From positions 1 to 56,833 of the IMG/VR virus record IMGVR_UViG_3300009788_000018: DNA of 56,833 nucleotides. One strand, given 5' to 3'. This DNA is from a virus (Duplodnaviria; Caudoviricetes). Below, one piece after another: positions 27,881 to 51,986 of the stretch. A program made the translations under genes and the position numbers. The notes under the pieces were generated by a model. It saw only the letters and a program-made list of their open reading frames with translations, searched no databases and was not told the DNA's origin. The stretch's first letter is position 1. Each line of letters begins with the position of its first letter.

Positions 27881-27893
27881 AGGAGTAAGGCAA

Positions 27894-28937: not shown

Positions 28938-28949
28938 AAGGACCGAAAA

Positions 28950-29195
28950 ATGATACCGATGATTGAAAACGTTGTGACTATCACAATGGAAGTGATATTC
29001 TTTGGTCTACTGATAATCTTGTGTGTTGGAGTTGTAGTAATCCGGGCAGCTGCAACCATCTACTGGAAAGATCGCTGTCATCGTTGCAAAGCTAAGAACA
29101 GTCTACGATGGACAAAAGAATTCATAGATGGTCAGATGGAAGATATCCCCAAGTGTATGGAATGTAACGACGAACTTTATTACCAACTACCATAA
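28950..29195 (+). CDS. TM helix plus zinc-ribbon small protein
   Basis: CHRC...CMEC. Confidence 0.55.
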   Translation: MIPMIENVVTITMEVIFFGLLIILCVGVVVIRAAATIYWKDRCHRCKAKNSLRWTKEFIDGQMEDIPKCMECNDELYYQLP

Positions 29196-29209
29196 GGAGT
29201 AGCCTTCGG

Positions 29210-29698
29210 ATGATTAAAGATTCTGATATCGCAAAAAAATTAAAGCCCTCTGAAGTTGAAGAAATAGTTGAGTTATTAGGACAAAACTTTAGATCCGAAA
29301 TTATGGCCAGAATGAATCCTGTCCTATCTCCACATGATTATGCTGACTACTATGCAGTGGCTATTCAAAAACTTGATAAAGTACGTGAACTTCTATTCGG
29401 CTCAGATTGTATGGTAGAGATGGGTTATAAGTGGAAGTTATTAAAAAAGGAAGAGTCTAAGAAAGAAAAGAAGAGCAAGAAAGCTAAGAAAAAGTATTCT
29501 AAGAAAAAGAAATACTCTAAAAAGAAGAAGATAGATAAATGGCAAGGTTTTAAAGATAATGTATATGATGATGGACCCTCAGAAGATAGTCAAATACACA
29601 AGCTGACTAAGAAACTAAAGCGGGCGACAGATCCGGCGGACAAACGTAAAATCCGCAAACAGTTAAGGAAATTAGGACACACAGGTGGCACACGATAA
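29210..29698 (+). CDS. Lys-rich protein ending in the LRKLGHxGG module
   Basis: KKKYSKK repeats; C-terminal TDPADKRKIRKQLRKLGHTGGTR. Confidence 0.7.
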   Translation: MIKDSDIAKKLKPSEVEEIVELLGQNFRSEIMARMNPVLSPHDYADYYAVAIQKLDKVRELLFGSDCMVEMGYKWKLLKKEESKKEKKSKKAKKKYSKKKKYSKKKKIDKWQGFKDNVYDDGPSEDSQIHKLTKKLKRATDPADKRKIRKQLRKLGHTGGTR

Positions 29699-29798
29699 TG
29701 ATTAGAAAATTAATGGTTCTACGATTACGGTTCTTTCTATTGCTCGGAGCGATAGAGCTAAGAATTCGTTTTGGCAAACCTCTAGGAGGTACACGACA

Positions 29799-29996
29799 AT
29801 GGAATTCATGTTAAGAACAGCCGCAGCAATGTTAAATTGTGAGCAGAGTCAGCTACACCCTGACTTTGTTAAATACTTGGGAGAGATCCAGAGTCTGGTA
29901 TTTCAAGTAGAGGGTCGAATAACAAGCAGACAGATCGTAGCTCCTGCCATAGTTAACTGGCAACATCTTACTGGAGAGAAAGCAAAGGTAATCTGA
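29799..29996 (+). CDS. Hypothetical protein
   Basis: SD AGGAGG. Confidence 0.55.
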   Translation: MEFMLRTAAAMLNCEQSQLHPDFVKYLGEIQSLVFQVEGRITSRQIVAPAIVNWQHLTGEKAKVI

Positions 29997-30262
29997 TGGC
30001 CAAGAACACTAAGATAAATATAAAGACCGATATACCTTATCGATGGAGTGAGCGAGGTTATGATGAGAGTATTAATGATTGTGTTTTAGCCTCAGACGAT
30101 CTGTGGTACTTAGCAGTACTAGGTGAGCTTGCGGCTGATATCTCCGAGGTTACAGGCGACCCTGTTATCTCAGATCAAGATCTTGTTAACTTTTATAACG
30201 ACGCTACAGGCATAAGTAGCGAGTGGGAAGAAGAAGGAGACGAAAATGAGACAGAGTTTTGA
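29996..30262 (+). CDS. Acidic hypothetical protein
   Basis: Coupled start and stop. Confidence 0.5.
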   Translation: MAKNTKINIKTDIPYRWSERGYDESINDCVLASDDLWYLAVLGELAADISEVTGDPVISDQDLVNFYNDATGISSEWEEEGDENETEF

Positions 30263-30521
30263 AACTGCAGTAGCAGGGATAGCCACGCTTATAATAGTGG
30301 TGCTTATAATCTTGGGGCTGTATTTTAGTTCAGGATGTGCTCCTGAGTCCAGAAGTTTAGTTCCCAGGACTCAAGAGCAAAAGGTACAGTCATTCATACG
30401 TATTTTCACAGATCCAAATATGGCACCCATATTGCGTCATCTTCGAATAAAACAGATGGAAGCTATCATGGAAAAAGAACTTGAAGAGCTCGACCGTGAG
30501 CGGGCTTTGAACACAATCTAA
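30246..30521 (+). CDS. Membrane protein or lipoprotein
   Basis: Hydrophobic segment then SSGC. Confidence 0.5.
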   Translation: MRQSFETAVAGIATLIIVVLIILGLYFSSGCAPESRSLVPRTQEQKVQSFIRIFTDPNMAPILRHLRIKQMEAIMEKELEELDRERALNTI

Positions 30522-30537
30522 TGAAAGGAGCAAGGCA

Positions 30538-30780
30538 ATGCCAAAGCAACAAAACAAATTTGGAGCAAAGAAGCTGGCTATGAAACAGTCTAAACGAGAC
30601 AGGGAGAAAGTTAAAGCTATCGCTAAGGCTGACGCTTTAAAGCCCATCGGAGGAAAGTGCCCTGAGTGTAAGCTGCGTATTCGTACCAATGATATGGGTA
30701 AGCATCGGGCAGGTATTAGTCATATTCGTCGTGTTGGTGTGTCGACGGATCGCACAAAGTACGGCGGCGGTCACAAATGA
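30538..30780 (+). CDS. Small basic zinc-finger protein
   Basis: CPEC...H....H; GGAGCAAGGCAA leader. Confidence 0.6.
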   Translation: MPKQQNKFGAKKLAMKQSKRDREKVKAIAKADALKPIGGKCPECKLRIRTNDMGKHRAGISHIRRVGVSTDRTKYGGGHK

Positions 30781-31271
30781 ACTGGGCTAAAGTTGATATA
30801 ACTATCGATCGACAGGTAAGGAAACTATGCTTTAAACCTTATCCAGGACATCGTCGAGGTTGTCCTAACTTTGGTAAGAAGGCAGGCTGTCCTCCTCAGG
30901 TACCTATGATCAATGAGCTATTTGATTTATCTCAGCCTGTCTGGGCGATCTGGAACATCTTTGACTTTGCAGCACATTGTGATAGGATGAGGGAAGCCCA
31001 TCCAAATTGGAGTAAGCGTCAGGTCGAATGTTGTCTATATTGGCAGCCGACCGCTAGGAAACAATTGTTCAGTACCTCTGTAGAGTTTTTACAGGAGCAC
31101 AAAGACCTTATGGTTATCTCTTGTCCTGAAGCCTGCGGAGTAAATGTCACGAAAACTATGTTAGATATTGGTCATGAATTAGAGTGGCCCCCTACAACAA
31201 AAACTTATCAAATACTGTTGGCAGGAAGTCGAATTAATAAATCTGTAAGAAAAAGGAGATCGCCATGTTGA
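30777..31271 (+). CDS. DUF2284-like metal-binding protein
   Basis: C...GCPNFGK..GCPP and PEACGVNV..T motifs. Confidence 0.65.
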   Translation: MNWAKVDITIDRQVRKLCFKPYPGHRRGCPNFGKKAGCPPQVPMINELFDLSQPVWAIWNIFDFAAHCDRMREAHPNWSKRQVECCLYWQPTARKQLFSTSVEFLQEHKDLMVISCPEACGVNVTKTMLDIGHELEWPPTTKTYQILLAGSRINKSVRKRRSPC

Positions 31272-31675
31272 ATAGAAGAGAAGTATTGAAAGGAATAACC
31301 TTAGCTGCCCTTTTCCCTAGCCTGGGAATTAAAAGGATAGGAGGGTTGGTTTCTGCCCAGGGTGGAGTAGTTAGTTTAGGAAGCACGGCTGGACTTCTCT
31401 CCAATCCTGGATATATCTTGTATGACCTCGTAAAGAAGTGGATACCAGATGACAAGATAGATCATAAGGCTTTTGAAAACCTGATTAAAGATTGCTCAAT
31501 AGAGATAGACACAGGGGATATTCCAACCACCAGTTCTATTGACGCTATAGTTTTTCTTGGTCAGGAGACTAAGCATGTCGTTTGGTTTGATGGTTCCGAC
31601 AGGGGTAAGATGAGTGTAATGCCCGAACGAAAAGCTAAAGACTTATTTGATAAGGATGGACATCGCTATGCCTAA
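31265..31675 (+). CDS. Protein with twin-arginine (Tat)-like signal peptide
   Basis: MLNRREVLKG followed by a hydrophobic stretch. Confidence 0.55.
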   Translation: MLNRREVLKGITLAALFPSLGIKRIGGLVSAQGGVVSLGSTAGLLSNPGYILYDLVKKWIPDDKIDHKAFENLIKDCSIEIDTGDIPTTSSIDAIVFLGQETKHVVWFDGSDRGKMSVMPERKAKDLFDKDGHRYA

Positions 31676-32114
31676 GTATAAGAAAATAACTTCCTTCAGA
31701 GGGCAGTACTTCTTTCTTAGCAACTTTGCTAGAAGTCCAATCGTGCATAATGGACACTTCTATCCGTCTGCTGAGCATTTATTTCAGACTATGAAAGCAA
31801 CTGATGATGAGCATCGAGAATATATCCGAACAGGTAGAGATGCCAGGGAGGCAAAATATCGAGGCCGACTTAGTCCGTTACGAGATGACTGGGAACAAAT
31901 TAAGGATGCGATAATGCTTCTGGTTGTTCTCGCTAAGTTTAATAGTAATCCTGGGTTGGCTAAGAAACTTAAGGCCACAGGAAATGCTATATTAATCGAA
32001 GAGAATTATTGGCACGATAATTATTGGGGGAACTGTCTCTGTGCCAATTGTGAAAATAAGCAACCTCACAATATGCTGGGTAGAATTTTAATGAGAGTTA
32101 GGAGAACACTGTAA
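31668..32114 (+). CDS. NADAR (YbiA-like) family protein
   Basis: FLSNF, SAEH.FQ..K, W...K..IM, KF..NP.L..L..TG, E....D..WG, N.LG..LM.VR. Confidence 0.92.
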   Translation: MPKYKKITSFRGQYFFLSNFARSPIVHNGHFYPSAEHLFQTMKATDDEHREYIRTGRDAREAKYRGRLSPLRDDWEQIKDAIMLLVVLAKFNSNPGLAKKLKATGNAILIEENYWHDNYWGNCLCANCENKQPHNMLGRILMRVRRTL

Positions 32115-32587
32115 TGGGTAGAAAATCGATACACCAAAAAAGTGCTATACTCAAAGCTTATAAAAAAGTAAAGTCTGTAAAAAGAATGGCTTTTCTTCTT
32201 AAAGTGACTGAAGCTACAGTGCATAACTACTTGAAGAAGTATAAGTTTAAACCTTTCGAGACTGAGACTGACGAGGTTTCTTTTGATGTGGCTAAAGCTT
32301 ATACCTACGATACTACTACCAGAGACCTAGTTCGTAAGTTTGGTTACTCAGTTGGAGGTATACGATATCACTTGGAGAAGTTTGTATTGTTTCCCCTGAA
32401 ATACAGGCTTACTGAAGATTGGACTCCTCCTAAGAAGATACAACATATTAAGGTTATCAATGCTCTGATAGCCAGGGATACCGATGATCCCCGAGATTTG
32501 GTAGGTTTACCAGGATTATCTAATAAGCTGATAGATGAGTATTGGTCTGGAGCTACAGGTAAAACTCTGAAGGATTACGACGAATGA
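32114..32587 (+). CDS. HTH DNA-binding protein
   Basis: SVKRMAFLLKVTEATVHNYL plus a second HTH-like segment. Confidence 0.55.
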   Translation: MGRKSIHQKSAILKAYKKVKSVKRMAFLLKVTEATVHNYLKKYKFKPFETETDEVSFDVAKAYTYDTTTRDLVRKFGYSVGGIRYHLEKFVLFPLKYRLTEDWTPPKKIQHIKVINALIARDTDDPRDLVGLPGLSNKLIDEYWSGATGKTLKDYDE

Positions 32588-32940
32588 AGAAGATAGGTAT
32601 AGTTGGATCTAGAAGAAGGAATACTACCAAAGATCTTATACGGGTCGAGGACACCTTCTGGGATATCTATGAAGATGATGATATTATCGTCAGCGGAGGT
32701 TGTCCTGAAGGGGGTGATCGCTTTGCTGAAATAATTGCTTCTCAACATGAGATACCTATTATTATCTTTAAGGCAGACTGGTCAGTAGGGCGACATGCTG
32801 GATTTTTAAGGAACACAGATATAGCAAAGGGTTCTGACGTTCTAATAGCTTGTGTATCGGGCGATCGAACAGGTGGGACCGAAGATACAATTTATAAGTT
32901 TAGAGGATTTTATCCAGAAGGGAGAGTAGTATTAGTATGA
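32584..32940 (+). CDS. SLOG family (YspA/DprA-like) protein
   Basis: IVGSR, IVSGGC..G.D..A, F.ADW, AG..RN..I, GGT..T. Confidence 0.85.
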   Translation: MKKIGIVGSRRRNTTKDLIRVEDTFWDIYEDDDIIVSGGCPEGGDRFAEIIASQHEIPIIIFKADWSVGRHAGFLRNTDIAKGSDVLIACVSGDRTGGTEDTIYKFRGFYPEGRVVLV

Positions 32941-33101
32941 ATGAAGACTATTGGAAAAGACGAGAAGCATTAGATAAAGCTTGGAGAGATGCTCCTCGCG
33001 ATGTGTTAATGGGCGGGGCTCTTGCTCTAATAATAATAATAATATGTGGTAGCGTAATAGGATTACTTAGCATAGCTATTATGGATTATATCACAAAGTA
33101 A
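32937..33101 (+). CDS. Small TM protein (54 aa, not in ORF track)
   Basis: ATGA overlap; LALIIIIICGSVIGLLSIAI. Confidence 0.5.
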   Translation: MNEDYWKRREALDKAWRDAPRDVLMGGALALIIIIICGSVIGLLSIAIMDYITK

Positions 33102-33114
33102 GGGAGACTTAGAG

Positions 33115-33351
33115 ATGGACCCTATAAAATTTGAATCAATGAACAAAACTTTTGCAGAGGATCAACCTCAATATATACCGCTGCCAGTCTTCCAAGACCC
33201 AGATGGCCGAGTGACCAGCGTTTGGAAACCGACCGACGAGGAGAAAAAGATAATTGCAGAAGGTGGTATGATCTGCTTGTGTCAGAGTACTTTTAATCAG
33301 CCCTTACAACCCGTGAACTTATGGGCTGCCGATGTTAAAGAAATAGAATAA
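33115..33351 (+). CDS. Hypothetical protein
   Basis: QPQYIPLP...VTSVWKP..EE...I..GG; SD. Confidence 0.6.
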   Translation: MDPIKFESMNKTFAEDQPQYIPLPVFQDPDGRVTSVWKPTDEEKKIIAEGGMICLCQSTFNQPLQPVNLWAADVKEIE

Positions 33352-33364
33352 GGAGATTTACAAG

Positions 33365-33883
33365 ATGGAAATGTACGAAGAGATGATGTTAGAATTTCAC
33401 AAAGCGTTCGAGGTACCCATCGCCGCATGTCCTGCCTTGCTACCTGCTGAAGCTGCACTGAGGAGGATAACTCTTATAGAATCTGAGGCAGGTGAACTAG
33501 GTGATGCGTTTCGAGAAAAGGATTTGGTAAAAGCTGCTGATGGTATTGGCGACCTTCTTTACGTTACGTTTGGTACTGCAGTTGAGATGGGCTTACCAAT
33601 AGACGAGATCTTTGCTCAGATCCATAGATCGAATATGACCAAGGTCTGTAAAGATGGAAGTCTGTTAAAAGACGCTGGAGGTAAAGTTCTTAAGCCTGCT
33701 ACCTATGAGCCTGTAGATCTTAGCTGGCTACTTAAGAACAGAGATCGTGATCTTGATGACCCACAATCTCCTTCAAATGGTTACATTTGCCAGGATTGTC
33801 AGTACTACGCTTCTGTGAACTGTAAGTCTGGTTCTGGTGAGTTATGCAAGATATTCACATTAAGAGCCTTTAACTATAGATGA
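33365..33883 (+). CDS. MazG-like NTP pyrophosphohydrolase
   Basis: EFH..F, E..EL, D...DL.YV..G, H.SNM.K, GKVLKP. Confidence 0.88.
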   Translation: MEMYEEMMLEFHKAFEVPIAACPALLPAEAALRRITLIESEAGELGDAFREKDLVKAADGIGDLLYVTFGTAVEMGLPIDEIFAQIHRSNMTKVCKDGSLLKDAGGKVLKPATYEPVDLSWLLKNRDRDLDDPQSPSNGYICQDCQYYASVNCKSGSGELCKIFTLRAFNYR

Positions 33884-35298
33884 CAGTACAGCAAGTACAA
33901 GTTAGAAGAGTACATCCATACAGAAAGTTTATGCCTCATCAGGTAAAGGCGATGGCCTTCTTGAAAAAGCTAAACGGTTGTGCTGGATTGTACATGGCTT
34001 GTGGAACTGGTAAGACCTTAGTAGTCGCTAGATATGCTAGGTTCCGTATGCCTGCTCTGATAATCTGTCGGAGAGATGACTACTTCACCTGGCAGAAAGA
34101 ACTGGCTTTAGAGGGAGTTCCTGGAAGCGATGTATTCTTACTACAGAATGCCAGGCAAGAACTACCTCTTGATCCACGCTGGGCCATCATAACGTATGGA
34201 CAGGTTAGGAATGCCAGGATTTTCCGTTGGATTAGACACATGCTTTGGAAGGTCACTGCCGCTGATGAATCGCATACTATTAAGAGATGGAAAGCTCAGC
34301 GAACTAAAAAGGTGATAGCAGCTACTAGGCATATACCCCATAGGATTGCTATGACCGGAACACCTATCACGAATACTCCTGGCGATGTTTACACGCAGTC
34401 CTTATTCGTAGATAATGGTAGAACGTTTGGTAACAACTGGTGGAAGTTTAAAAAGAAGTATTATATTCAGTCAGGTCCTGGATGGTATCTGAAGCATAAC
34501 TCCAAGGATCTTATCGCTAATAAACTTAGCAAGATGTCTTTCTACGTTCATGAGGACGACGTACTTAATCTTCCTCCTGTTCGACGGTTGACTAAATCAG
34601 TTCGTATGTCAGGACAACAGAGGCATCTTTACAGGAAGATCTGGTCAGATTTTGATGTAGTGATACCAGGCCGAAAGATCGTGGAGCTTAATCATGTAAT
34701 ATCTCAGTGTATTAAGAGTAGACAGATTGCTTCGGGTTTTATCTATGATGAAAACCATAAAGCTATATGGATGAAATCTCCTAAGCTTGATTTGTTATTA
34801 TCGATGTTGAAAGACGAGGATTACTTCAAGTACAAAGAGAAGATCGTTATATGGTGCGCTCATTCGGCCGAAATATTTAAGATAACTTCAGAAGCTAAAG
34901 CTTTGGGAGTTAAATCAGTAACCTTTGGAGGACATCTAGATCCAGACCAAAAGATCGAGGCTCGACAAAGATTTGAAGGTGATAAAGCTATCAAGCTATT
35001 TATTGGTCAGGTAGATGCAGGAGTAGGAATGAACGAACTTGTCGTAGCTGACACGGCTGTATATTTCTCTAACTCTTCTCGAGTAGTATCGCGTCAGCAA
35101 TCTGAGTTGAGAATACGTAGGAAAGGTTCAGAAGGTCATAAGTCTATAACCTATTGGGATTTTGTCTCAGAGGATTCAATCGACGTTACCATATTGGAAG
35201 CTCTCAGGCAGAATATCTCTCTCGCTGACTATATAACCGCCAGAATTAACATGGGAGATTCGCTTTCTCGCATTCTCAATCTGGTAGCTTACAAATAG
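33880..35298 (+). CDS. SNF2-family helicase
   Basis: PHQ, GTGKT, DESH, MTGTP, G.GMN, Q...RI.R.G. Confidence 0.9.
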   Translation: MTVQQVQVRRVHPYRKFMPHQVKAMAFLKKLNGCAGLYMACGTGKTLVVARYARFRMPALIICRRDDYFTWQKELALEGVPGSDVFLLQNARQELPLDPRWAIITYGQVRNARIFRWIRHMLWKVTAADESHTIKRWKAQRTKKVIAATRHIPHRIAMTGTPITNTPGDVYTQSLFVDNGRTFGNNWWKFKKKYYIQSGPGWYLKHNSKDLIANKLSKMSFYVHEDDVLNLPPVRRLTKSVRMSGQQRHLYRKIWSDFDVVIPGRKIVELNHVISQCIKSRQIASGFIYDENHKAIWMKSPKLDLLLSMLKDEDYFKYKEKIVIWCAHSAEIFKITSEAKALGVKSVTFGGHLDPDQKIEARQRFEGDKAIKLFIGQVDAGVGMNELVVADTAVYFSNSSRVVSRQQSELRIRRKGSEGHKSITYWDFVSEDSIDVTILEALRQNISLADYITARINMGDSLSRILNLVAYK

Positions 35299-35316
35299 AA
35301 TAACTTGATATATAAT
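35288..35316 (+). promoter_or_regulatory. Possible promoter for the recombination/replication operon
   Basis: CTTACA-17nt-TATAAT. Confidence 0.4.
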
Positions 35317-35350
35317 AAAAAATTAATCAAAAAGGAAAGGAGTAAGGCAA

Positions 35351-36397
35351 ATGGCAAATTCATTGTTAATAGTAGAAAACCCATTTGAGAAGCCCCCTAT
35401 AATTCCTAAGAGATTTGGTTGGTCGTACTCTACTCAAAAGCTTTTTAGGAAATGTAAGCGCAAGTTCTTCTGGACCAAGATATTTAGGTTACGATCACGG
35501 AGAGAAGCTGCTCCATTGGTCATCAGTAGTGCTGGACACGAAGGTCTAGAACTATGGTATCGTTTTCCAAAAGTACGAATGAGGAAAGTGGCTGACCGGA
35601 TTGTCAAAGAGACTAAAGCTAGGCTTGAAGGTAACTCTCGTTTTTATAACCAAGATGATTATGATAGCTTGATGATCTTGTTAGATACCGTCACAGGTAT
35701 GCTGATGGGCTATGCTAGTCATTACGCCAGTGACCGAAAGAGATGGAAGATCGCTAAGGAAGGTGTTGAAGCGTGGTTCGATATCAATATGGGCCGATTC
35801 GACTACAGAGGTAAGATAGACTTGCTTCCTATCATCAACGGTAAGCAACGGGTGATGGATCATAAAATCATCAGTAAACTTGATGGAGCTTTTATAGAAG
35901 CTCTTCCAATGGATGGACAGTTGAGAAGTTATCTGCTAGGAACTAGAAGAGGTTTAAACCTTCAACCTAAGCAGGTTACTTACAATATGATCAAGAAGTG
36001 TAAACTAAGGAGGAAGTCCAACGAGTCACTTAAAGAATTCTCTGACCGAATTCAACTTGATTATATGAACAGAGCTGAATTCTACTTCCATCGAGAAACT
36101 CTTACATTTACCAAAGCTGAGATAGCTAACTTCGTGTACAGTTTAGAAACAACTAACGCTGAATACGAATGGCTCCTTAGCAGAATGGATAATCCTCTTG
36201 ATCCACAAGAGTGGCCAGAGGCAGATCATAACTGTGGAGAGTTCTTTAAGACCTGTGAATTCTTCTCCCTTTGTCACGAGGGCTTAGATCGTGGAACAGG
36301 TCAATTATTTTGCCAATATAATCCGGAGAAGAAAAATGCCACCAAAAAGAAAAAAGTCGTCAAAAAAGGTAAAGGTAAAGGCAAAAAGAAAAAGTGA
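35351..36397 (+). CDS. PD-(D/E)XK Cas4/RecB-like exonuclease
   Basis: SYS....C.RK, H..LE, RGKIDL, DHK, Q...Y, C-terminal Cys cluster. Confidence 0.85.
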   Translation: MANSLLIVENPFEKPPIIPKRFGWSYSTQKLFRKCKRKFFWTKIFRLRSRREAAPLVISSAGHEGLELWYRFPKVRMRKVADRIVKETKARLEGNSRFYNQDDYDSLMILLDTVTGMLMGYASHYASDRKRWKIAKEGVEAWFDINMGRFDYRGKIDLLPIINGKQRVMDHKIISKLDGAFIEALPMDGQLRSYLLGTRRGLNLQPKQVTYNMIKKCKLRRKSNESLKEFSDRIQLDYMNRAEFYFHRETLTFTKAEIANFVYSLETTNAEYEWLLSRMDNPLDPQEWPEADHNCGEFFKTCEFFSLCHEGLDRGTGQLFCQYNPEKKNATKKKKVVKKGKGKGKKKK

Positions 36398-45824: not shown

Positions 45825-46274
45825 ATGTTTAATGATGATAGACCTAAACGTAGGAATATCTATATGAGGTTTGCTTTGGATTGGGCAGGTCGAGCTTTGT
45901 GTAAGCAGGATAATCGAGCTGTAGGTTGTGTGATCACTACCGAAGATATGAGAGTAACTTTGGCCACAGGCTACAATGGTCCACCTAAGCAACTAGGTAA
46001 TGACGCTTGTCGTAATGAGAAAGGTAACTGTGGCTGTCTTCATGCTGAAGCCAACGCGATTGCTATGGTAGATGGACGAATACCAAACAAGATCATGTTC
46101 GTAACGATGTGTCCTTGCGAAACTTGTGCTACTCTCATTGCTCAGAGCAATATTACCAAGGTTTTTTATTACCAAGATTATCGGAATAAAGCTGGTTTAG
46201 AAAGATTACAAGCATGCGGAATAGACGTAATAAGAATAAACGATCTAGGTTGCTCCCGCCCTTACCTTGTCTAG
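45825..46274 (+). CDS. dCMP deaminase
   Basis: VGCVI, TGYNG.P, HAEANA, PC..C. Confidence 0.92.
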   Translation: MFNDDRPKRRNIYMRFALDWAGRALCKQDNRAVGCVITTEDMRVTLATGYNGPPKQLGNDACRNEKGNCGCLHAEANAIAMVDGRIPNKIMFVTMCPCETCATLIAQSNITKVFYYQDYRNKAGLERLQACGIDVIRINDLGCSRPYLV

Positions 46275-48256
46275 AAGGTAACGTAGTTGCAATTGATACC
46301 GAGACTACGGGTTTAAATCCGTATGACAATGGTGTTCACGACAAGTTCGGGAATGCTTCAGGAGCTCGTATCTTTTGCTGGAGTTACAAAACTAGCAAGG
46401 GTGAGTGGGGCTTCATGCTAAAGAATCCTCGGAACATTCGTTGGCTAAAGCGATTGATGAATGACCCTACTAAGCATATAGTATTTCAAAATGCTAAGTT
46501 CGATTTAAAGATGCTTTCCTTCGAAGGTCTCGATGTCCTTAGTCTTAAGGCAGACATCCATTGCACGATGATCCTATCCAAGGTACTGGACTCAGTAGAG
46601 AAGCGTCACAATCTGAGGTTCTTGGCCAGGAAGCATCTTGGCTGGACCACCGAAGATAAAGACGAGATTGAGTACTGGTTGAAAACTAATAAGCGGAGCT
46701 TTACCAAAGAGCATGGACGATCTCCAAACTTTAGAGATGCCCCTCTTAGTCTAGTCAAGGACAGAGTTAGGTGGGACACTGAAGCTACATTGGAAATCTT
46801 TGGAGTGCTTTATCCTCGAGCTCGCCGCATCTGTAACGAGCTTTACGAAACAGAACGGCATTTACTCTTTGTCTGTCTGGACATGGAAAGTACGGGAGTG
46901 TTGATTGATATAACCCGAGCTAGAGAGTTAAAGGCCGAAGCCCAGATTACCTTGGATAGAATCAAAGCTGACTTGGATAAACTGATATGTCCTCTTACCT
47001 TCGAGAAGAAAAAGAAAGGTGAGATGATAAAAGTAACTGTAGATGAGTTTAATCCTGGTAGTAGTGCTTTGCAGTTACCGGCAGCTTTCGAGAAGCTAGG
47101 AATTCCATTAAAGTATAAGACCAAACCAAAGAAGAACCACAAGACAGGTGGTAAGACAGGAGGAGGTAACTGGGCCTTCGATGAATACGCAATGATCCGC
47201 TATGTGTCTGAACCATTGGTGGATGTCATTCGAGATTCAGGAGAAGAGGGCTGGCCAGGAGATAAGTTTTACAGGGCTGTTAGGAAAACTGTACGGAAGC
47301 ATAAACTAAATAAGCGAGAGTTGCTACCACCGCTGATTTTAAAATATAGGCAGCTCTCGAAGATGATCTCTACTTATTATGATCATTTCATCAACGACTG
47401 CTTGGACGTACATTTCACACCTGCTGGTATAGAAATAGGAACGATACACTGTAAGTTTAATCAGAGTACAGCTATGACCGGAAGGTTTAGTTCATCTGAG
47501 GTTAACCTACAAAATCAGCCTAGAAAACTTGGGCCTCGCGAATGCTTTATTACCAGGAACGGTCGGAACCATTATCACTTCGACTATGATCAGATAGAGA
47601 TGAAGATGTTTGTTCACTTTGCCGAAGATACCAAGATGGCTGAGGCAATCAAAGATGATATTCATGCACACGTAGCTGCAGAAGTATATAACATTCCTCT
47701 CGAGGAGGTAACCTCAGAAAGAAGGAAGCGAGCAAAGGGAGTTAACTTTGGAATTATATATGGCTCAGGTCCTGCCACTATGGCCGAGACTTTAACTAAG
47801 AAAGGCTTACCAACTACAGTAGCCCAATCAACTAGACTAGTTCTGGGTTACCATAAGAAGTTCCCATCTGTTCAACGAACTGTTCGTGAACTGAAGCAAG
47901 ATCTGAAACAGAAAGGCTATGTTACAAATCCATTCGGCCGTAGGTATCGGATCAAACTGAAGTTTGCATATAAAGCTTTGAACTATATGTGTCAAGGTAC
48001 TTCGGCAGACCAGATGAAAAAAGCTATGGTCGATATTTGGTATTGGTTGAGAGAGAATAATCTGAAGAGCAAGATGATCCTGACTGTACATGATGAAATA
48101 GTACTAGAGGTTCCACCAGTCGAAGAGAGACTTGTGCTGCCTAAGGTTAAAGCAATCATGGAAGACCTGGAAACTTACTTTGTTCCTATGACCGTATCAG
48201 TAGAGAAGGTCGCCATGAACTGGAGTAAAAAAGAAAAAATTAAACTTGCAGCCTGA
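46214..48256 (+). CDS. polA: DNA polymerase family A with 3'-5' exonuclease
   Basis: DTETTG, QNAKFD, TGRFSS...NLQN.P, DYDQIE, R..AK.VNFGIIYG, N...QGT.AD, TVHDE. Confidence 0.96.
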   Translation: MRNRRNKNKRSRLLPPLPCLEGNVVAIDTETTGLNPYDNGVHDKFGNASGARIFCWSYKTSKGEWGFMLKNPRNIRWLKRLMNDPTKHIVFQNAKFDLKMLSFEGLDVLSLKADIHCTMILSKVLDSVEKRHNLRFLARKHLGWTTEDKDEIEYWLKTNKRSFTKEHGRSPNFRDAPLSLVKDRVRWDTEATLEIFGVLYPRARRICNELYETERHLLFVCLDMESTGVLIDITRARELKAEAQITLDRIKADLDKLICPLTFEKKKKGEMIKVTVDEFNPGSSALQLPAAFEKLGIPLKYKTKPKKNHKTGGKTGGGNWAFDEYAMIRYVSEPLVDVIRDSGEEGWPGDKFYRAVRKTVRKHKLNKRELLPPLILKYRQLSKMISTYYDHFINDCLDVHFTPAGIEIGTIHCKFNQSTAMTGRFSSSEVNLQNQPRKLGPRECFITRNGRNHYHFDYDQIEMKMFVHFAEDTKMAEAIKDDIHAHVAAEVYNIPLEEVTSERRKRAKGVNFGIIYGSGPATMAETLTKKGLPTTVAQSTRLVLGYHKKFPSVQRTVRELKQDLKQKGYVTNPFGRRYRIKLKFAYKALNYMCQGTSADQMKKAMVDIWYWLRENNLKSKMILTVHDEIVLEVPPVEERLVLPKVKAIMEDLETYFVPMTVSVEKVAMNWSKKEKIKLAA

Positions 48257-48281
48257 CAAATAAAATAGCTTATGGTATATT
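48252..48281 (+). promoter_or_regulatory. Sigma70-like promoter for the candidate sRNA
   Basis: CTGACA-17nt-TATATT with extended TG; near twin of 26302-26331. Confidence 0.7.
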
Positions 48282-48286
48282 AATAT

Positions 48287-48417
48287 CTAAGCTGACTTAG
48301 GAAACAGTAGTTGTTAATCAAGGAGGTGATCATGAAATATCGGAAACAGTAGTCCAAGGATGGAAGAGGGACCCTGCCACTATGCAATTTGCCTTGCTCC
48401 GGTGGTGGGGTTTTTTT
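48287..48417 (+). ncRNA. Candidate small regulatory RNA (anti-RBS loop, GGA repeats, 6-codon ORF)
   Basis: Bounded by a promoter and an intrinsic terminator; loop ATTTGCCTTGCTCC is complementary to the repeated gene leaders. Confidence 0.7.
48371..48417 (+). terminator. Intrinsic terminator with 19-nt loop
   Basis: ACCCTGCCACT/GGTGGTGGGGT 11-bp stem (three G-U pairs) followed by a T run. Confidence 0.8.
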
Positions 48418-48493
48418 ATGTCCTCATCGGAACCGCACGCAGCAGGCATACCCATGATAGGCCGGATTAAGTTATTTTTGAACTATTTTTCTG

Positions 48494-48522
48494 TGTAAGT
48501 CTTTTATTTACAATGACTTAAC
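48494..48522. promoter_or_regulatory. Palindromic GTAAGT-N15-ACTTA site
   Basis: Same arms and spacing as the 52541 and 52613 repeats. Confidence 0.5.
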
Positions 48523-48636
48523 ATAAATTTTGGTCCAAAAATGGTATTTTTATGGCTATAGGAGCCCTTATCCTATATAATTTACATGTACCTAATAGGG
48601 GCCGACGATATAAACCTTATTTAAAGGAGCAAGGCA

Positions 48637-49041
48637 ATGAATCAGGTAACAAACTTATTACAGAAGTTGGCAAAGGCTAAGACCGCAACTGAGAAGAGGA
48701 GCATCAGGATTCGTCTTCGAAAGCTTGGCCACATCGGAGGGACTCGAGGTAAGGTCGTCGAGCCTAAACCTAAAAAGGAATTAACCAAAAAACAAAAGGA
48801 AAGTATCGGTAAACACAATGACGAAGTAACTCGTCGAATTAAATCCGGAGAGTATCGGGTTGACTTTTCAAATACAGGAGGGAGCAATAAAAAAACTTGT
48901 TGGAACTGTCAGAAATACAAATCTTGCCGTAGGAGTTTAAAAAAGAATAATATCAATCCAAAAGATCCTAGCAATGAAGCTATTAAGTTATGTTCAGTTT
49001 GGCGCCTGAACAAAGAAAGGAGCAAGGCAAATGGTAAGTAA
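48637..49041 (+). CDS. Probable early protein: N-terminal LRKLGHxGG module plus Cys cluster
   Basis: TATEKRSIRIRLRKLGHIGGTR; CWNC....C...C; conserved leader. Confidence 0.7.
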   Translation: MNQVTNLLQKLAKAKTATEKRSIRIRLRKLGHIGGTRGKVVEPKPKKELTKKQKESIGKHNDEVTRRIKSGEYRVDFSNTGGSNKKTCWNCQKYKSCRRSLKKNNINPKDPSNEAIKLCSVWRLNKERSKANGK

Positions 49042-50305
49042 AAATAAAAAGGTCAGTAAGAAGAAGCCGTCCCCAAAACCAACACTTCTTACTCACACTG
49101 AGGACAACGTCCTATTCATCGACGAGATCAAGGTTCCTGACAAGTGGAGTCCTGCTACCGATACCTTAGACAAGCTACTCAATCAGGCTGAGGTACTTGC
49201 TAAAACTGAGGGGGCCTTGTCGATCAAGATCAATGTCAAAGGTAAACTGAGCAAGTCCATAGCTGAGAGGCATAAGTTTAAGGAGATAGGAAAGCTCCCT
49301 ACCAAGCCTGTCACTTACATCATGAAGCGGAACCTTAACTTCGAGGCCAGGGCAGAGAAACCTATCAACCCTAAGTACAGAACACCGACTCAGCTTATCG
49401 AAGCTATCACCAAGGACCTACAACAGTTAATGAACCGGTCAGAGGATATTACTGATATAGGTCACGAGGTAGTAGCAGCTGAGAAGACTTCCAAGATACT
49501 GTCTCGCCGGTCAGCCAACGGGAAGTACTCGCTTAATCCTCACAGGTTCCACCGACTGATACTCGACGAGATATCAGGCTCTGGCCTTGGCCGCTTAGTT
49601 AAAGAGGCCCTGAAGGATAGGCCTGACCTTAAGGTTTTAAAAACAGACGAGGAAGATATTAAGGAAGGTAAGAGAAGACGCAAGAGTATCCTGGCCGGCA
49701 ACATGGCCAAGGAGCTTAAGGTACAAGCCAAGGTAATACTGAAGCAGATGGACGCCGACGTCAACGGCTTAGTATCTGATAGACAACTGATGATGAGTTG
49801 TAAGGCTGAGGTGGCCAGGACGGCTAAACTAGTAGTTAACAATTTAAAGGAAATGGAAACAAGTTTAGATAACTTAGAAAAATGGAAAGGGGTAATTCAA
49901 AACAGGTCAAGGGTATTACGTCTTCATAGACGAAAAGAGATAGCACTAAGCGAGAAGATCTTCGGTGATAGCCCTGCCGAACTAACTTCTAAAAAATCCA
50001 CAAGGGCTGACAAAGGAGATTCAGAAATGGCAAAGAAAAAAGTAAAGAAAGCAAAGAAGGCTGCACCAAAAGGGAACATCAAGGAATTGATCGCCAAGCT
50101 TGGCAAGACAAAGGACCCAACCGAAAAACGTAAGATCCGTCAGCAGCTGAGGAAGCTCGGTCACACCGGTGGACTCGGTCAGGGAGCCGGTCGTCCTAAG
50201 AAGAGCAAGAAGAAAACTTCCAAGAAGAAAACCAGCAAGAAGGTTAGCAAGAAAGCCAAGAAGGCTAAAGGCAAGAAGAAGTATTCCAAGAAGGCTAAGA
50301 AGTAA
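49031..50305 (+). CDS. Probable early basic protein with C-terminal LRKLGHxGG module and H1-like tail
   Basis: 424-aa ORF; conserved leader. Confidence 0.75.
   Translation: MVSKNKKVSKKKPSPKPTLLTHTEDNVLFIDEIKVPDKWSPATDTLDKLLNQAEVLAKTEGALSIKINVKGKLSKSIAERHKFKEIGKLPTKPVTYIMKRNLNFEARAEKPINPKYRTPTQLIEAITKDLQQLMNRSEDITDIGHEVVAAEKTSKILSRRSANGKYSLNPHRFHRLILDEISGSGLGRLVKEALKDRPDLKVLKTDEEDIKEGKRRRKSILAGNMAKELKVQAKVILKQMDADVNGLVSDRQLMMSCKAEVARTAKLVVNNLKEMETSLDNLEKWKGVIQNRSRVLRLHRRKEIALSEKIFGDSPAELTSKKSTRADKGDSEMAKKKVKKAKKAAPKGNIKELIAKLGKTKDPTEKRKIRQQLRKLGHTGGLGQGAGRPKKSKKKTSKKKTSKKVSKKAKKAKGKKKYSKKAKK
50027..50305 (+). CDS. Nested in-frame 92-aa histone-H1-like protein
   Basis: AAAGGAGATTCAGAA-ATG; composition changes abruptly at MAKKKVKK. 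Confidence 0.6.
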   Translation: MAKKKVKKAKKAAPKGNIKELIAKLGKTKDPTEKRKIRQQLRKLGHTGGLGQGAGRPKKSKKKTSKKKTSKKVSKKAKKAKGKKKYSKKAKK

Positions 50306-50313
50306 GAGCCGAA

Positions 50314-50339
50314 ACCTGTCCTTACTTAAAAGGGCAGGT
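50314..50339 (+). terminator. Stem-loop after the Lys-rich gene (no U tract)
   Basis: ACCTGTCCTT/AAGGGCAGGT. Confidence 0.45.
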
Positions 50340-50412
50340 CTGTCAGGTTGGTAACTGGCATTGATAAGGTAGCCAAAGAAATAACTATAACTTTTAGTTA
50401 AGGAGTAAGGCA

Positions 50413-50568
50413 ATGACAATTCTAACTGAGGCCGATACAGATCTGCATGAAGAAATTCTTGATCGGGTAGAGAAAGAAAGTTTTAGGGATTTTAATTTTA
50501 TTGATGAAGAAACTAAAGCTATGATCCATGAAGAAGAAATGTTCAGATGGATTCATACATTTTGTTAA
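50413..50568 (+). CDS. Small acidic protein (51 aa, not in ORF track)
   Basis: GGAGTAAGGCA-ATG; MTILTEADTDLHEEILDRVEKE... Confidence 0.65.
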   Translation: MTILTEADTDLHEEILDRVEKESFRDFNFIDEETKAMIHEEEMFRWIHTFC

Positions 50569-50586
50569 GAAAGGAGCAAGGCAAAA

Positions 50587-51558
50587 ATGGCAAAGAGTAT
50601 ACAATGGAAAAAAGATGACCGTGTAATGGTAGACTTTGGAGAGGAGTTCTTCAAAGGAACCATTACTAAACTAGTAAGGCAGGGAGCTAAAGTACACTTC
50701 GATGATGGTGAGACCCACGATATAAAATGTTCCAAGCTAGTAAGGCTTAGAGCTAAGAAGCAGAACCTTGGTTCTAAAGCAAAGGCCAGAACCAAAGAAG
50801 AAGCAGGAGGACAAGGTTTTACTCAGTACGTGGTAAAGTGGGATGGTGTTAACTTTAAAGTTAAGGCTGATGAGGGCGAGTTTTATGGATGGTGGAGAAA
50901 GATCCGGGTAAAGGACAGTGACGAGTCAGGTTACGGTGTTGATATCATGGTACGGTATGAAAATCACATATATAATGTAGAGTCCATCCGATATCTTATA
51001 GAAGATCCAAGGGATGATCTGGAATCTCTAAACGCTGATATCTGTGCTGCCATCAATAAGTGGTTCCACTACAAATGTAAAGGTACTTTCGACACTATCA
51101 AAGATCTTCAGCAACGAGCGGAGAAGCCTATGATCAGGGTCTCCCAACTATCAACGATCGACCAGATGATCATTGACCTGAAGGCCTACCGAGATACTGC
51201 CCTGCGGTGTGGTGGTCGTAGGACCATGGCCCTTGAGGGGGATAATCCTGACACCGAACCTAGCATGAGAATTGAGATAGACCTATCTGCTCAAGCTGCG
51301 ACCATGAAGGGCAGTAGAGTTCCACCCGTAGGTGAAGGACTGCTATTCGACAACGTAGCTAAGGACATATCCAAAGGAGGCAAGAACCGAAAGGCTATGT
51401 CAACTAAGGTGGAAGGTAACTCGGATAACATCAAGGGTATTCTTAAACGGCTAGAGAAAACTACTGATAAGGCAGAGCGACGTAAGCTCCGAGGCATTCT
51501 GAGAAAGATGGGCCACACCGGTGGAACAAGAAAGAAAACTAAGAAGGGCAAGAAGTAA
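50587..51558 (+). CDS. Probable early protein: N-terminal Tudor-like domain, C-terminal LRKMGHTGG module
   Basis: WKKDDRV.VD...KG.ITK...AKVHFDDGE; conserved leader. Confidence 0.7.
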   Translation: MAKSIQWKKDDRVMVDFGEEFFKGTITKLVRQGAKVHFDDGETHDIKCSKLVRLRAKKQNLGSKAKARTKEEAGGQGFTQYVVKWDGVNFKVKADEGEFYGWWRKIRVKDSDESGYGVDIMVRYENHIYNVESIRYLIEDPRDDLESLNADICAAINKWFHYKCKGTFDTIKDLQQRAEKPMIRVSQLSTIDQMIIDLKAYRDTALRCGGRRTMALEGDNPDTEPSMRIEIDLSAQAATMKGSRVPPVGEGLLFDNVAKDISKGGKNRKAMSTKVEGNSDNIKGILKRLEKTTDKAERRKLRGILRKMGHTGGTRKKTKKGKK

Positions 51559-51598
51559 ATAACTGGATAGTACCAACCTTATTACTAGGAGCAAGATA

Positions 51599-51715
51599 AT
51601 GAAAGAAAAGAAACGAACTAAAGGTATGGGCAAAGCAAGAAGACTTAGAAGTTTGTTTGGTAAGAACTTCCGTCGAGCACTGAAGTCAATGAAGTTTGAA
51701 AGATTAGTTGGTTAA
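51599..51715 (+). CDS. Small basic protein (38 aa, not in ORF track)
   Basis: GGAGCAAGATA-ATG; MKEKKRTKGMGKARRLRSLFGK... Confidence 0.5.
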   Translation: MKEKKRTKGMGKARRLRSLFGKNFRRALKSMKFERLVG

Positions 51716-51752
51716 ATCAGAAACTAAAATTTTATGTTAAAGGAGCAAGACA

Positions 51753-51986
51753 ATGGCAAAGACAAGTAAAAAGAAAACATCAAAGAAGGACAGAGCACTG
51801 AGTATAACTACCGATGATGGTTACCTTGTAGTTAAGATCCCGTTGAACGACGAGCCGTTCCCTCTTTCCAAATCGGAGAAGAGTCAGGTGATCGCCACTA
51901 CCCATGGTAACGCTACTACGGATCTGAGTCTCAACGGCACACCTGTAATCTTGGGCCTCAATGCTTATATTAAGAATAATAAGTAG
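51753..51986 (+). CDS. Small protein with SKS.KS..IATT.GN...GLNAY motif
   Basis: Leader variant; terminator follows. Confidence 0.65.
   Translation: MAKTSKKKTSKKDRALSITTDDGYLVVKIPLNDEPFPLSKSEKSQVIATTHGNATTDLSLNGTPVILGLNAYIKNNK

What the first reader, a model, noticed from the sequence alone, without database searches (positions are those of the whole stretch)
48252..48417. Candidate trans-acting phage sRNA whose terminator loop is antisense to a shared leader on 7-9 phage genes
Seen: a promoter (48252-48281) and an intrinsic terminator (48371-48417) bracket ~130 nt with no real ORF. The terminator has an unusually large 19-nt loop containing AUUUGCCUUGCUCC (48387-48400), the reverse complement of GGAGCAAGGCAAAU. 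GGAG(C/T)AAGGCAA lies directly before ATG at 27882, 30527, 35339, 48626, 49019, 50402 and 50573; looser variants occur at 51588 and 51742. The only variable base among the seven core copies is C/U, and it faces a G in the loop, so both pair (G-C or G-U). That pattern is expected for RNA-RNA pairing. Inference: one sRNA blocks the SD and start codon of a dispersed regulon (the whole 48637-51986 block plus the first recombination gene), acting as a timing switch. The same loop would also end polA read-through transcripts.
Basis: partly seen in the sequence, partly recalled or inferred. Interest (0 to 1): 0.92.

Follow-up and report, generated by a model that had tools for sequence, protein, structure and literature searches.

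The report
Phage small RNA matching shared gene leaders
An uncultivated, probably virulent phage and its relatives carry a small hairpin RNA gene after their DNA polymerase gene; its loop is complementary to an unusual ribosome-binding leader shared by several phage genes, and loop and leaders change together between phages, which points to an RNA switch on translation.

Summary
GGAGYAAGGCAA occurs 7 times on the plus strand, each time as the ribosome-binding site of a gene, and once on the minus strand at 48389-48400. Chance expectation is 0.02. The minus copy lies in the 19-nt loop of an 11-bp terminator hairpin.

The interpretation gained comparative support but has no expression data. Of 15 phage lineages with related polA whose downstream region could be read, 10 have a hairpin downstream of polA with a UUGCYCC-containing loop. 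Stems differ but still pair: 7 of 11 pairs changed on both sides.

Loop and leaders fall into three matched classes:
- GGAGYAAGGC in the window and five other lineages.
- GGAGCAA(C/U)GC in G003, with 6 leaders and 1 loop.
- GGAGCAAGAA in L255, with 2 leaders and 1 loop.

Two lineages without the hairpin, L011 and L168, also lack the shared leader. The minus-strand ORF after the motif is not conserved.

Best reading: a phage riboregulator that pairs with SD plus spacer of 7-9 phage mRNAs. Repression, timing and a discrete transcript are inferred. No RNA data could be obtained.

The closest analogues are the P1/P7 c4 RNA and Gram-positive terminator-loop sRNAs. The scan had not noted this on other DNA.

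The parts
48253..48281 (+). Sigma-70-like promoter of the small RNA (CTGACA-17-TATATT with TG before the -10). It overlaps the polA stop codon.
   Evidence: 10 of 12 matches. Conserved in relative B. Equivalent 10-of-12 sites lie upstream of the hairpin in L133, L132, L170 and L165.
48288..48418 (+). Predicted small RNA of about 130 nt, from the inferred start about 7 nt after the -10 to the end of the U run. The ends are inferred, not mapped.
   Evidence: No Rfam family matches.
48320..48352 (+). 12-nt perfect SD (48320-48331) plus a 6-codon mini-ORF MKYRKQ* (48332-48352) inside the RNA. Possibly a ribosome-loading or 5' stabiliser element; its role is unknown.
   Evidence: Kept in B with the stop TAG changed to TAA. 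SD plus mini-ORFs with unrelated peptides occupy the same position in L011, L168 and L253.
48371..48417 (+). Intrinsic terminator hairpin: 11-bp stem (48371-48381 with 48401-48411), 19-nt loop (48382-48400) and a U run through 48417.
   Evidence: Stem covariation across 7 lineages.
48387..48400 (+). Anti-leader AUUUGCCUUGCUCC in the loop, complementary to GGAGCAAGGCAAAU.
27882..27893 (+). Leader copy GGAGTAAGGCAA before the gene 27894-28433 (179 aa, no family hit).
   Evidence: -23.9 kcal/mol.
30527..30538 (+). Leader copy GGAGCAAGGCAA before the gene 30538-30780 (80 aa).
   Evidence: -25.8.
35339..35350 (+). Leader copy GGAGTAAGGCAA before the gene 35351-36397 (PD-(D/E)XK exonuclease).
   Evidence: -27.4. 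The leader is present at the orthologue only in B.
48626..48637 (+). Leader copy GGAGCAAGGCAA before the gene 48637-49041 (134 aa, basic).
   Evidence: -23.6.
49019..49030 (+). Leader copy GGAGCAAGGCAA before the gene 49031-50305 (424 aa).
   Evidence: -27.4. The orthologues in B and L170 keep the leader.
50402..50413 (+). Leader copy GGAGTAAGGCAA before the gene 50413-50568 (51 aa).
   Evidence: -21.6.
50573..50584 (+). Leader copy GGAGCAAGGCAA before the gene 50587-51558 (323 aa).
   Evidence: -24.5. The orthologues carry the cognate class of leader in B, L170, G003 and L255.
51588..51599 (+). Loose leader variant GGAGCAAGATAA before the 38-codon ORF 51599-51715. It has two mismatches to the loop.
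   Evidence: -15.1.
51742..51753 (+). Loose leader variant GGAGCAAGACAA before the gene 51753-51986 (77 aa). It has one mismatch to the loop.
   Evidence: -19.4.

Best explanation
The polA-distal hairpin belongs to a phage riboregulator. In the window it is most likely made as a small RNA of about 130 nt from its own host-type promoter (48253-48281). It is also carried at the 3' end of polA operon transcripts, which the same hairpin terminates.

The loop (48387-48400) pairs with 12-14 nt covering the Shine-Dalgarno GGAG, the unusual conserved spacer YAAGGCAA and, in some copies, the A of AUG. At least seven plus-strand phage mRNAs are targeted, with two weaker ones. Pairing at that place should keep the 30S subunit off and lower translation of these genes as a set.

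Shown by sequence and comparison: the complementarity, its placement in a hairpin loop, its conservation, and the co-variation of loop and leaders.

Inferred: that the RNA is made as a discrete species, that pairing happens in the cell, that the effect is repression rather than activation, and any role in timing.
For: 1. The motif is far beyond chance: 8 copies against 0.02 expected.

2. Ten of the 15 polA-related lineages whose downstream region I could read have a hairpin after polA with the anti-leader in its apical part. These are the window, B/L017, L170, L131, L132, L133, L246, L165, L254=L255 and L253. The hairpin lies 51-229 nt after the polA stop in 9 of them and 919 nt after it in L133. 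Nine of the 10 are followed by a T run.

3. The stems differ in sequence but still pair. On the model-fitted alignment of 7 hairpins, 93.8% of cells pair, 7 of 11 pairs changed on both sides, and the covariation score is 0.463 against 0.230 in shuffles (0 of 500 reach it). Slid controls give at most 0.216.

4. L246 was not in the training set, and the covariance model found it at E = 7.5e-6.

5. Loop and leaders fall into three matched classes, given as plus/minus counts of the 10-mers:
- GGAGYAAGGC: window 7/1, B 7/1, L170 3/1, G001 1/1, G002 1/1.
- GGAGYAAYGC: G003 6/1, with no class I copy in its complete 50.6-kb genome.
- GGAGYAAGAA: L255 2/1.
In addition, G006 (L246) has 2 plus-strand class I leaders; its loop copy, GGGGCAAGGC, falls outside the 10-mer and scores 2/0 (see the Against line, point 2).

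6. One orthologous gene, the 323-aa protein, carries the class that matches its own genome's loop in the window, B, L170, G003 and L255.

7. G003 leaders pair at -24.0 kcal/mol with their own loop and at -16.8 to -18.2 with class I loops. Window leaders pair at -23.2 with their own loop and -19.6 with the G003 loop.

8. Leader variation inside a genome is C/U opposite a loop G, at position 5 in the window, B and L170 and at position 8 in G003. Both variants can pair.

9. L011 and L168 lack the hairpin: no model hit and none by eye. Their orthologues of 48637 and 50587 have ordinary, unrelated RBSs. On the polA tree they are nested in the group with 89/93 support, which suggests joint loss.

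10. Promoter-like sites matching 10 of 12 lie directly upstream of the hairpin in 6 of the 10 lineages.

11. The six best non-self duplex sites in the genome are leaders.

12. Terminator loops that pair with SD regions are established for LhrC in Listeria (PMC4132741, passages read).
Against: 1. There is no expression evidence of any kind, and the host is unknown.

2. L246/G006 has the loop ...UUGCCUUGCCCC, which puts an A.C mismatch against the GGAG of its two leaders. That leaves 9 + 2 pairs at -18.7 and -19.4 kcal/mol. This loop change is not compensated.

3. At position 12, the loop of L132 mismatches its one visible leader. The loop of L170 matches only 1 of its 3 leaders.

4. In L253 the complementarity shrinks to 7-10 nt around the SD.

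5. In 4 of the 10 lineages (L131, L246, L255, L253) no sigma-70-type promoter passes the scan upstream of the hairpin. There the element may exist only as the 3' end of polA mRNA.

6. L131 has no U run, and half of its anti-leader is paired in the predicted fold.

7. The predicted inner helix costs about 5 kcal/mol to open. A 12-14-bp helix inside a 19-nt closed loop is sterically demanding; this is my inference.

8. Regulon membership is not stable. The nuclease gene has the leader only in the window and B.

9. Co-variation of an inverted copy of the same word would also be expected for a double-stranded DNA site.
Confidence: 0.68

Rival explanations
1. Same pairing, different form. There is no independent small RNA. 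The hairpin is simply the polA operon terminator. Its loop acts either as part of the long mRNA's 3' end (or a fragment processed from it), or in cis on read-through transcripts. In the cis case it would silence the first downstream leader gene only on transcripts that ran through the terminator.
For: The hairpin follows polA in all 10 lineages. Four of the 10 show no promoter-like site upstream. The first leader gene lies 215-880 nt downstream of the hairpin in every lineage where one is visible.
Against: Six of the 10 lineages have a 10-of-12 promoter placed to give a 60-130-nt RNA. A promoter-like site lies between the hairpin and the first leader gene in L133, L132, L170, L165 and L131. 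Leaders lie up to 20 kb away and upstream (27882, 30527 and 35339 in the window; 44881 in G003), which a cis mechanism cannot reach.
Confidence: 0.15
2. The pairing is real but activates or stabilises the targets instead of repressing them. For example, it might protect processed 5' ends or free the RBS from an inhibitory fold.
For: The direction of regulation cannot be read from sequence. A hammerhead ribozyme sits 11-24 nt upstream of one leader in four lineages, so processing near leaders does occur.
Against: The duplex covers the SD itself and reaches the start codon. In known cases that blocks initiation (LhrC, PMC4132741 passages; c4, PMC12197685 passages). I did not look for inhibitory structure in the leaders.
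Confidence: 0.08
3. The 12-mer is a double-stranded DNA site for a phage protein, and orientation does not matter. The copy in the hairpin loop is one more binding site, and the classes reflect changes in protein specificity.
For: Co-variation of an inverted identical word fits a DNA site as well as RNA pairing.
Against: All plus-strand copies sit at a fixed RBS distance from a start codon. The single inverted copy is in the apical part of a hairpin in 10 of 10 lineages, although the stems are unrelated in sequence. Its orientation is always antisense. Within-genome variants are C/U opposite a loop G, which RNA pairing tolerates.
Confidence: 0.05
4. There is no regulatory link. The leader is only a favoured RBS cassette spread by recombination, and the inverted copy is a relic or the RBS of a small minus-strand gene.
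For: Relative B has an extra gene inserted between two copies of TTTAAAGGAGCAAGGCAATG, so the leader can serve as a recombination joint. In the window a TTG-initiated 35-codon minus ORF follows the motif.
Against: The expected number of chance copies is 0.02. The inverted copy is kept in 10 lineages whose polA identity to the window is 56-66% in the 8 distant ones (94-96% in the close relative B), and it changes class together with the leaders. The minus ORFs are 0-35 codons long, unrelated, frame-shifted between the window and B, and have no start in L131. Twelve nucleotides are too short for homogenisation by homologous recombination (inference).
Confidence: 0.03

Closest known systems
c4 antisense RNA of phages P1 and P7 (Citron and Schuster 1990, as described in the review PMC12197685, passages read)
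   Same: Both are phage-encoded small RNAs whose loop sequences are complementary to the ribosome-binding region of a phage mRNA. In both, specificity differs between related phages through matched changes in RNA and target.
   Different: As I recall, c4 is cut out of the same operon transcript as its target, has two pairing loops and controls one operon (icd-ant) for immunity in temperate phages. Here there is a single loop in a terminator hairpin and 7-9 dispersed targets that share one leader. The genome has no integrase or resolvase match. No Rfam family, C4 included, matched.
Gram-positive sRNAs with C-rich loops that bind SD sequences, such as LhrC of Listeria (PMC4132741, passages read). 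RNAIII, RsaE and FsrA are cited there.
   Same: A terminator-hairpin loop pairs with the SD region and blocks translation. One RNA serves several targets.
   Different: Those are chromosomal sRNAs with short UCCC seeds and imperfect pairing to unrelated leaders. Here the pairing is 12-14 nt and perfect, the targets carry an identical extended leader, and RNA and targets sit in one virus.
E. coli sRNAs that use terminator loops for pairing (PMC11979758, search listing and abstract only)
   Same: Terminator loops are used as a pairing surface.
   Different: It is a host regulon (iron uptake) rather than a virus. I did not read the details.
T4 RegA translational repressor (recalled; review PMC3014915 seen only as listing and abstract)
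   Same: One factor shuts down translation of a set of phage early mRNAs by acting at their initiation regions.
   Different: RegA is a protein with loose sequence recognition. Here the proposed factor is an RNA, and recognition is by Watson-Crick pairing to a shared leader.

Membership tests
Trans-acting base-pairing small RNA (anti-SD type) | Discrete transcript with its own promoter and terminator | tested here: inconclusive
   A promoter-like site (10 of 12) and an intrinsic terminator are predicted in the window and in 6 of 10 lineages. There are no RNA data; none was listed.
Trans-acting base-pairing small RNA (anti-SD type) | Complementarity to the translation initiation regions of its targets, standing out from the rest of the genome | tested here: met
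   The six best non-self sites among 22,718 windows are leaders. Duplexes of 12-14 bp give -21.6 to -27.4 kcal/mol.
Trans-acting base-pairing small RNA (anti-SD type) | Pairing conserved or compensated in relatives | tested here: met
   Three matched loop/leader classes. Exceptions are an uncompensated A.C in L246 and end mismatches in L132 and L170.
Trans-acting base-pairing small RNA (anti-SD type) | Changes translation or stability of the targets | not testable with these tools
   This needs reporters or toeprinting.
Rfam C4 antisense RNA family (P1/P7 c4 type) | Match to the family's covariance model | tested here: not met
   No Rfam family reached its gathering score in the window. The scan of 48200-48700 up to E = 10 listed only chance-level snoRNA, miRNA and lncRNA models.
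Intrinsic (Rho-independent) terminator | G+C-rich stem directly followed by a U run | tested here: met
   An 11-bp stem and a U run through 48417, z = -4.0. Nine of 10 lineages have a T run.
Small minus-strand protein gene using the motif as RBS | Reading frame conserved in relatives | tested here: not met
   The frames are 35, 32, 2, 0, 9, 20, 2, 19, 16 and 33 codons long and unrelated. L131 has no start, and an 8-nt indel separates the window from B.

The most novel reading that the evidence does not exclude
A family of riboregulators in uncultivated, probably virulent phages. One small RNA defines its own regulon through a leader 'address' written into the SD-to-AUG spacer of chosen genes. 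RNA and addresses co-evolve into mutually orthogonal classes: GGC, (C/U)GC and GAA at leader positions 8-10. Class switching could serve timing within one infection. It could also serve competition between co-infecting relatives, since an RNA of one class would silence the early genes of an incoming phage of the same class but not of another. That would be a lytic-phage counterpart of P1/P7 heteroimmunity.
Probability: 0.3. Interest if true: 0.88.

Novelty: new variant of a known kind. Interest (0 to 1): 0.78.

Why it matters
Post-transcriptional control in virulent phages is known mostly from proteins such as T4 RegA. Phage small RNAs described so far mostly act on host genes or on a single phage operon (review PMC12197685, passages read).

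Here a whole phage lineage with no cultured member appears to mark a set of genes with one extended leader and to carry the matching RNA. The nearest GenBank phage polA is at most 27% identical. Natural specificity variants give a ready-made compensatory-mutation experiment.

If confirmed, this would show a simple way for a virus to build and rewire a regulon, since genes join by acquiring the leader, as the nuclease gene did in the window lineage. It would also supply orthogonal RNA/leader pairs for synthetic translation control.

Tried and rejected
Searches that gave nothing useful:
- GenBank phages: blastn of 48200-48700 found no match. tblastn of polA gave at most 27% identity, so no cultured relative or host is known.
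- Rfam: nothing at gathering score in the window, and only chance-level hits around the RNA.
- tRNA scan: none.
- Pfam and PHROGs: of the 10 proteins searched in each library, only the nuclease 35351 had a family.
- PDB profile search of the 323-aa family: best E = 0.4.
- ESM Atlas: no usable hit.

Approaches with limits:
It only re-found relative B. Protein-based scans were what found relatives.
- The MAFFT alignment of hairpins (A4) put L133, L132 and L165 out of register. The covariance model built on it aligns L132, L165 and L131 imperfectly. The pair counts come from a model-fitted alignment and lean towards the structure. The per-hairpin folds are independent of it.
- Conservation against relative B is not informative on its own. 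The segment 48350-48450 is 94-96% identical, but so is the adjacent polA 3' end.

Readings rejected:
- Minus-strand ORF as the explanation.
- Plus-strand ORFs 48360-48470 and 48382-48498, which lack an SD and run through the terminator.
- I considered a CsrA-type sponge role for the GGA-rich 5' half. I did not pursue it because that half is poorly conserved in B (82-84% identity with an indel) and absent from the short forms in L132, L133, L165 and L170.

Rows left out:
- The polA tree omitted L166 and L167, which are N-terminal fragments, and L253-L258, which were fetched later.
- L166 and L167 have no downstream sequence and were not counted among the 15 examinable lineages.
- L254 and L255 gave identical hits and were counted once.
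- L257 has a hairpin after its first downstream gene with the loop UCGCUCCAG (model E = 0.042). I left it as undecided and counted it among the 5 lineages without the element.
Full report
WHAT THE WINDOW IS. The window is a whole IMG/VR virus record of 56,833 bp with direct terminal repeats, rated 100% complete. Minus-strand structural genes occupy 1-25.9 kb and 52.8-56.8 kb. A plus-strand block runs from 26.3 to 52.5 kb and includes a family A DNA polymerase at 46214-48256. No tyrosine or serine recombinase domain was found, so the phage is probably virulent. The nearest GenBank phage polymerase is at most 27% identical, and the host is unknown.

THE OBSERVATION.
- GGAGYAAGGCAA occurs 7 times on the plus strand and once on the minus strand, against 0.02 expected.
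- Each plus copy is preceded by AA (AAA in 6 of 7; TAA at 50402) and followed by 0-3 A and then (A)TG of an ORF.
- The usual SD of this phage is AAAGGAG, so the unusual part is the fixed 8-nt spacer YAAGGCAA.
- Two looser copies lie at 51588 and 51742.
- The minus copy, 48389-48400, sits in the loop of a hairpin with arms 48371-48381 and 48401-48411, followed by a U run through 48417. The 61-nt fold has z = -4.0.
- A promoter-like site matching 10 of 12, with TG before the -10, lies at 48253-48281.
- The predicted loop has a 4-bp inner helix. Freeing the 12 nt costs about 5.4 kcal/mol.
- The RNA also contains a perfect 12-nt SD and a 6-codon ORF at 48320-48352.

RELATIVES. Nothing was found by DNA similarity in GenBank phages. 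Protein-guided scans with polA alignments and with the 323-aa protein family found relatives in IMG/VR and in metagenomes.
- Relative B (L017 plus L130/L079, from the same metagenome) is about 83% identical in DNA over 25,892 aligned positions.
- The others have polA 48-66% identical to the window.
- On a polA tree of 12 rows the group is a clade with 100/99 support and terminal branches of about 0.3-0.4 changes per site.

THE HAIRPIN IS A CONSERVED ELEMENT. Of the 15 lineages whose sequence downstream of polA could be read, 10 have a hairpin there with ...UUGCYCC in its apical part. These are the window, B, L170, L131, L132, L133, L246, L165, L254=L255 and L253.
- The distance from the polA stop is 51-229 nt in 9 lineages. 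It is 919 nt in L133, where a gene intervenes.
- A T run follows in 9 of 10; the exception is L131.
- Stem sequences are different but complementary. On the alignment fitted by a covariance model built from 7 of them, 93.8% of cells pair, 7 of 11 pairs changed on both sides, and no shuffle of 500 reached the covariation score. Slid controls fall to at most 0.216 against 0.463.
- That alignment leans towards the structure. The single-sequence folds give the same stems.
- The model found only its 7 training hairpins below E = 1e-3 in 989 kb of polA-bearing loci. It then found L246, which it had not seen, at E = 7.5e-6, and L254/L255 weakly at E = 0.025.
- Promoter-like sites matching 10 of 12 lie just upstream in 6 of 10 lineages. 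They would give RNAs of about 60-75 nt in L132, L133, L165 and L170 and about 130 nt in the window and B.

LOOP AND LEADERS CHANGE TOGETHER. This is the main result. Counts of the three 10-mers on the two strands are:
- Class I, GGAGYAAGGC: window 7/1, B 7/1, L170 3/1, G001 1/1, G002 1/1.
- Class II, GGAGYAAYGC: G003 6/1, with no class I word anywhere in its complete 50.6-kb genome.
- Class III, GGAGYAAGAA: L255 2/1.
- G006 (L246) has 2 plus-strand class I leaders and scores 2/0, because its loop copy is GGGGCAAGGC. This case is listed under counter-evidence below.
- Four stray minus-strand words occur in non-cognate cells.

The plus copies are RBSs of real ORFs. One orthologous gene, the 323-aa protein at 50587, carries the leader class of its own genome in the window, B, L170, G003 (GGAGCAAUGCAA, where U faces the loop G) and L255.

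Cognate duplexes are stronger than non-cognate ones. G003 leaders give -24.0 kcal/mol with their own loop against -16.8 to -18.2 with class I loops. Window leaders give -23.2 against -19.6 with the G003 loop. The first leader of L170 also follows its loop at position 12, with U opposite A.

L011 and L168 have no hairpin. Their orthologues of 48637 and 50587 have ordinary, different RBSs. On the tree they sit inside the group with 89/93 support, so joint loss is the simplest reading.

COUNTER-EVIDENCE.
- The loop of L246 has C where the others have U. This gives an A.C mismatch against GGAG in both of its leaders. The SD cannot easily follow, which may explain the mismatch, but it remains an uncompensated change.
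- The loop of L132, and 2 of the 3 L170 leaders, mismatch at the duplex end.
- L253 keeps only 7-10 nt of complementarity.
- The contig of L165 ends before any leader gene, so its predicted leader is untested.
- Four of the 10 lineages lack a promoter that passes the E. coli-type scan.
- The nuclease gene has the leader only in the window and B.

RIVALS.
- A minus-strand gene is excluded. The frames after the motif are 0-35 codons long, unrelated, and frame-shifted between the window and B.
- Chance or a relic is excluded by the counts and the class matching.
- A double-stranded DNA site would also give matched inverted words. It does not explain why the inverted copy is always in a hairpin loop with unrelated stems, always antisense, and why variants within a genome are C/U opposite G.
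- The serious remaining alternative concerns form, not principle. The loop may act as the 3' end of polA mRNA or in cis on read-through transcripts. Dispersed and upstream leaders (27882-35339 in the window; 44881 in G003) and the promoters between the hairpin and the first leader gene argue for action in trans.

MECHANISM PROPOSED. The RNA is transcribed by the host polymerase. Contact probably starts at the apical UUUGCC (opening cost 0.9 kcal/mol) with GGCAAA next to the start codon. It then spreads over the SD and blocks initiation on 7 strong targets and 2 weak ones. The genome-wide duplex scan ranks six leaders first among non-self sites and the seventh about 17th. Whether all 12-14 pairs can form inside a closed 19-nt loop is doubtful on steric grounds; that is my inference. 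The direction and timing of regulation are not shown.

COMPARISON WITH KNOWN SYSTEMS. The nearest phage precedent is the c4 RNA of P1 and P7, with loops complementary to the RBS region and matched changes between phages (review PMC12197685, passages read). The nearest structural precedents are terminator-loop pairing with SD regions in LhrC and related Gram-positive sRNAs (PMC4132741, passages read) and in E. coli (PMC11979758, abstract only).

No Rfam family matches. Three full-text searches turned up no description of a phage RNA with a shared multi-gene leader. That covers only the held library, and supplements were not available.

I file the element as a new variant of a known kind.

SIDE FINDINGS. 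These are listed under Noticed in passing. The main one is a type II hammerhead ribozyme placed 11-24 nt upstream of the leader of the small 48-58-aa gene in four lineages.

Noticed in passing
window 50307-50378 (+); L017 3136-3200; L246 7564-7633; L170 1571-1632: A type II hammerhead ribozyme (Rfam RF02276) lies 11-24 nt upstream of the leader of the small 48-58-aa gene in four lineages. Scores are 44.9, 44.1 and 38.8 bits (gathering score 37) in B, L246 and L170. The window scores 32.3 bits, below gathering, with E = 6.9e-5 in a 371-nt search. Self-cleavage would cut the polycistronic mRNA just ahead of a leader.
   Followed up: partly
window 48320-48352; L011 about 3513-3542; L168 about 710-733; L253 about 7294-7315: A very strong SD followed by a 2-6-codon mini-ORF with unrelated peptides (MKYRKQ, MNKLL, MKRH, MK) sits downstream of a promoter just after polA. 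It occurs both in lineages with the hairpin and in lineages without it. It may be a ribosome-loading or 5' stabiliser element.
   Followed up: partly
window about 48520-48560; L133 7860-7925; L246 6450-6540; L165 3640-3710; L132 10060-10130: Between the hairpin and the next promoter, all these phages have 2-3 loose repeats of the form CAAAAA(N)GG(C/T)NGTTTT(T). Some were scored as weak terminator-like hairpins. They could be protein-binding repeats or serial weak terminators.
   Followed up: no
L132 10440-10760; L165 3900-4117: A G+C-rich stretch of about 300 nt that looks structured follows a promoter and precedes the first leader gene in two AT-rich relatives. No Rfam family matched at gathering score.
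   Followed up: no
L017 1131-1565 versus window 48626: Relative B has an extra 130-aa gene inserted between two copies of TTTAAAGGAGCAAGGCAATG. The leader therefore also marks a gene-cassette junction.
   Followed up: partly
window 48637, 49031, 50587 and the orthologues: Several leader-bearing proteins share a short basic module...R(I/L)R..LRK(L/M)GH.GG.... BLAST links otherwise unrelated proteins through about 32 residues. This agrees with another first-reader note. The function is unknown.
   Followed up: partly
L258 9180-9470: A long tandem array of 9-nt units (GACTGCTCT-like) lies downstream of polA in a more distant relative that lacks the anti-leader hairpin.
   Followed up: no
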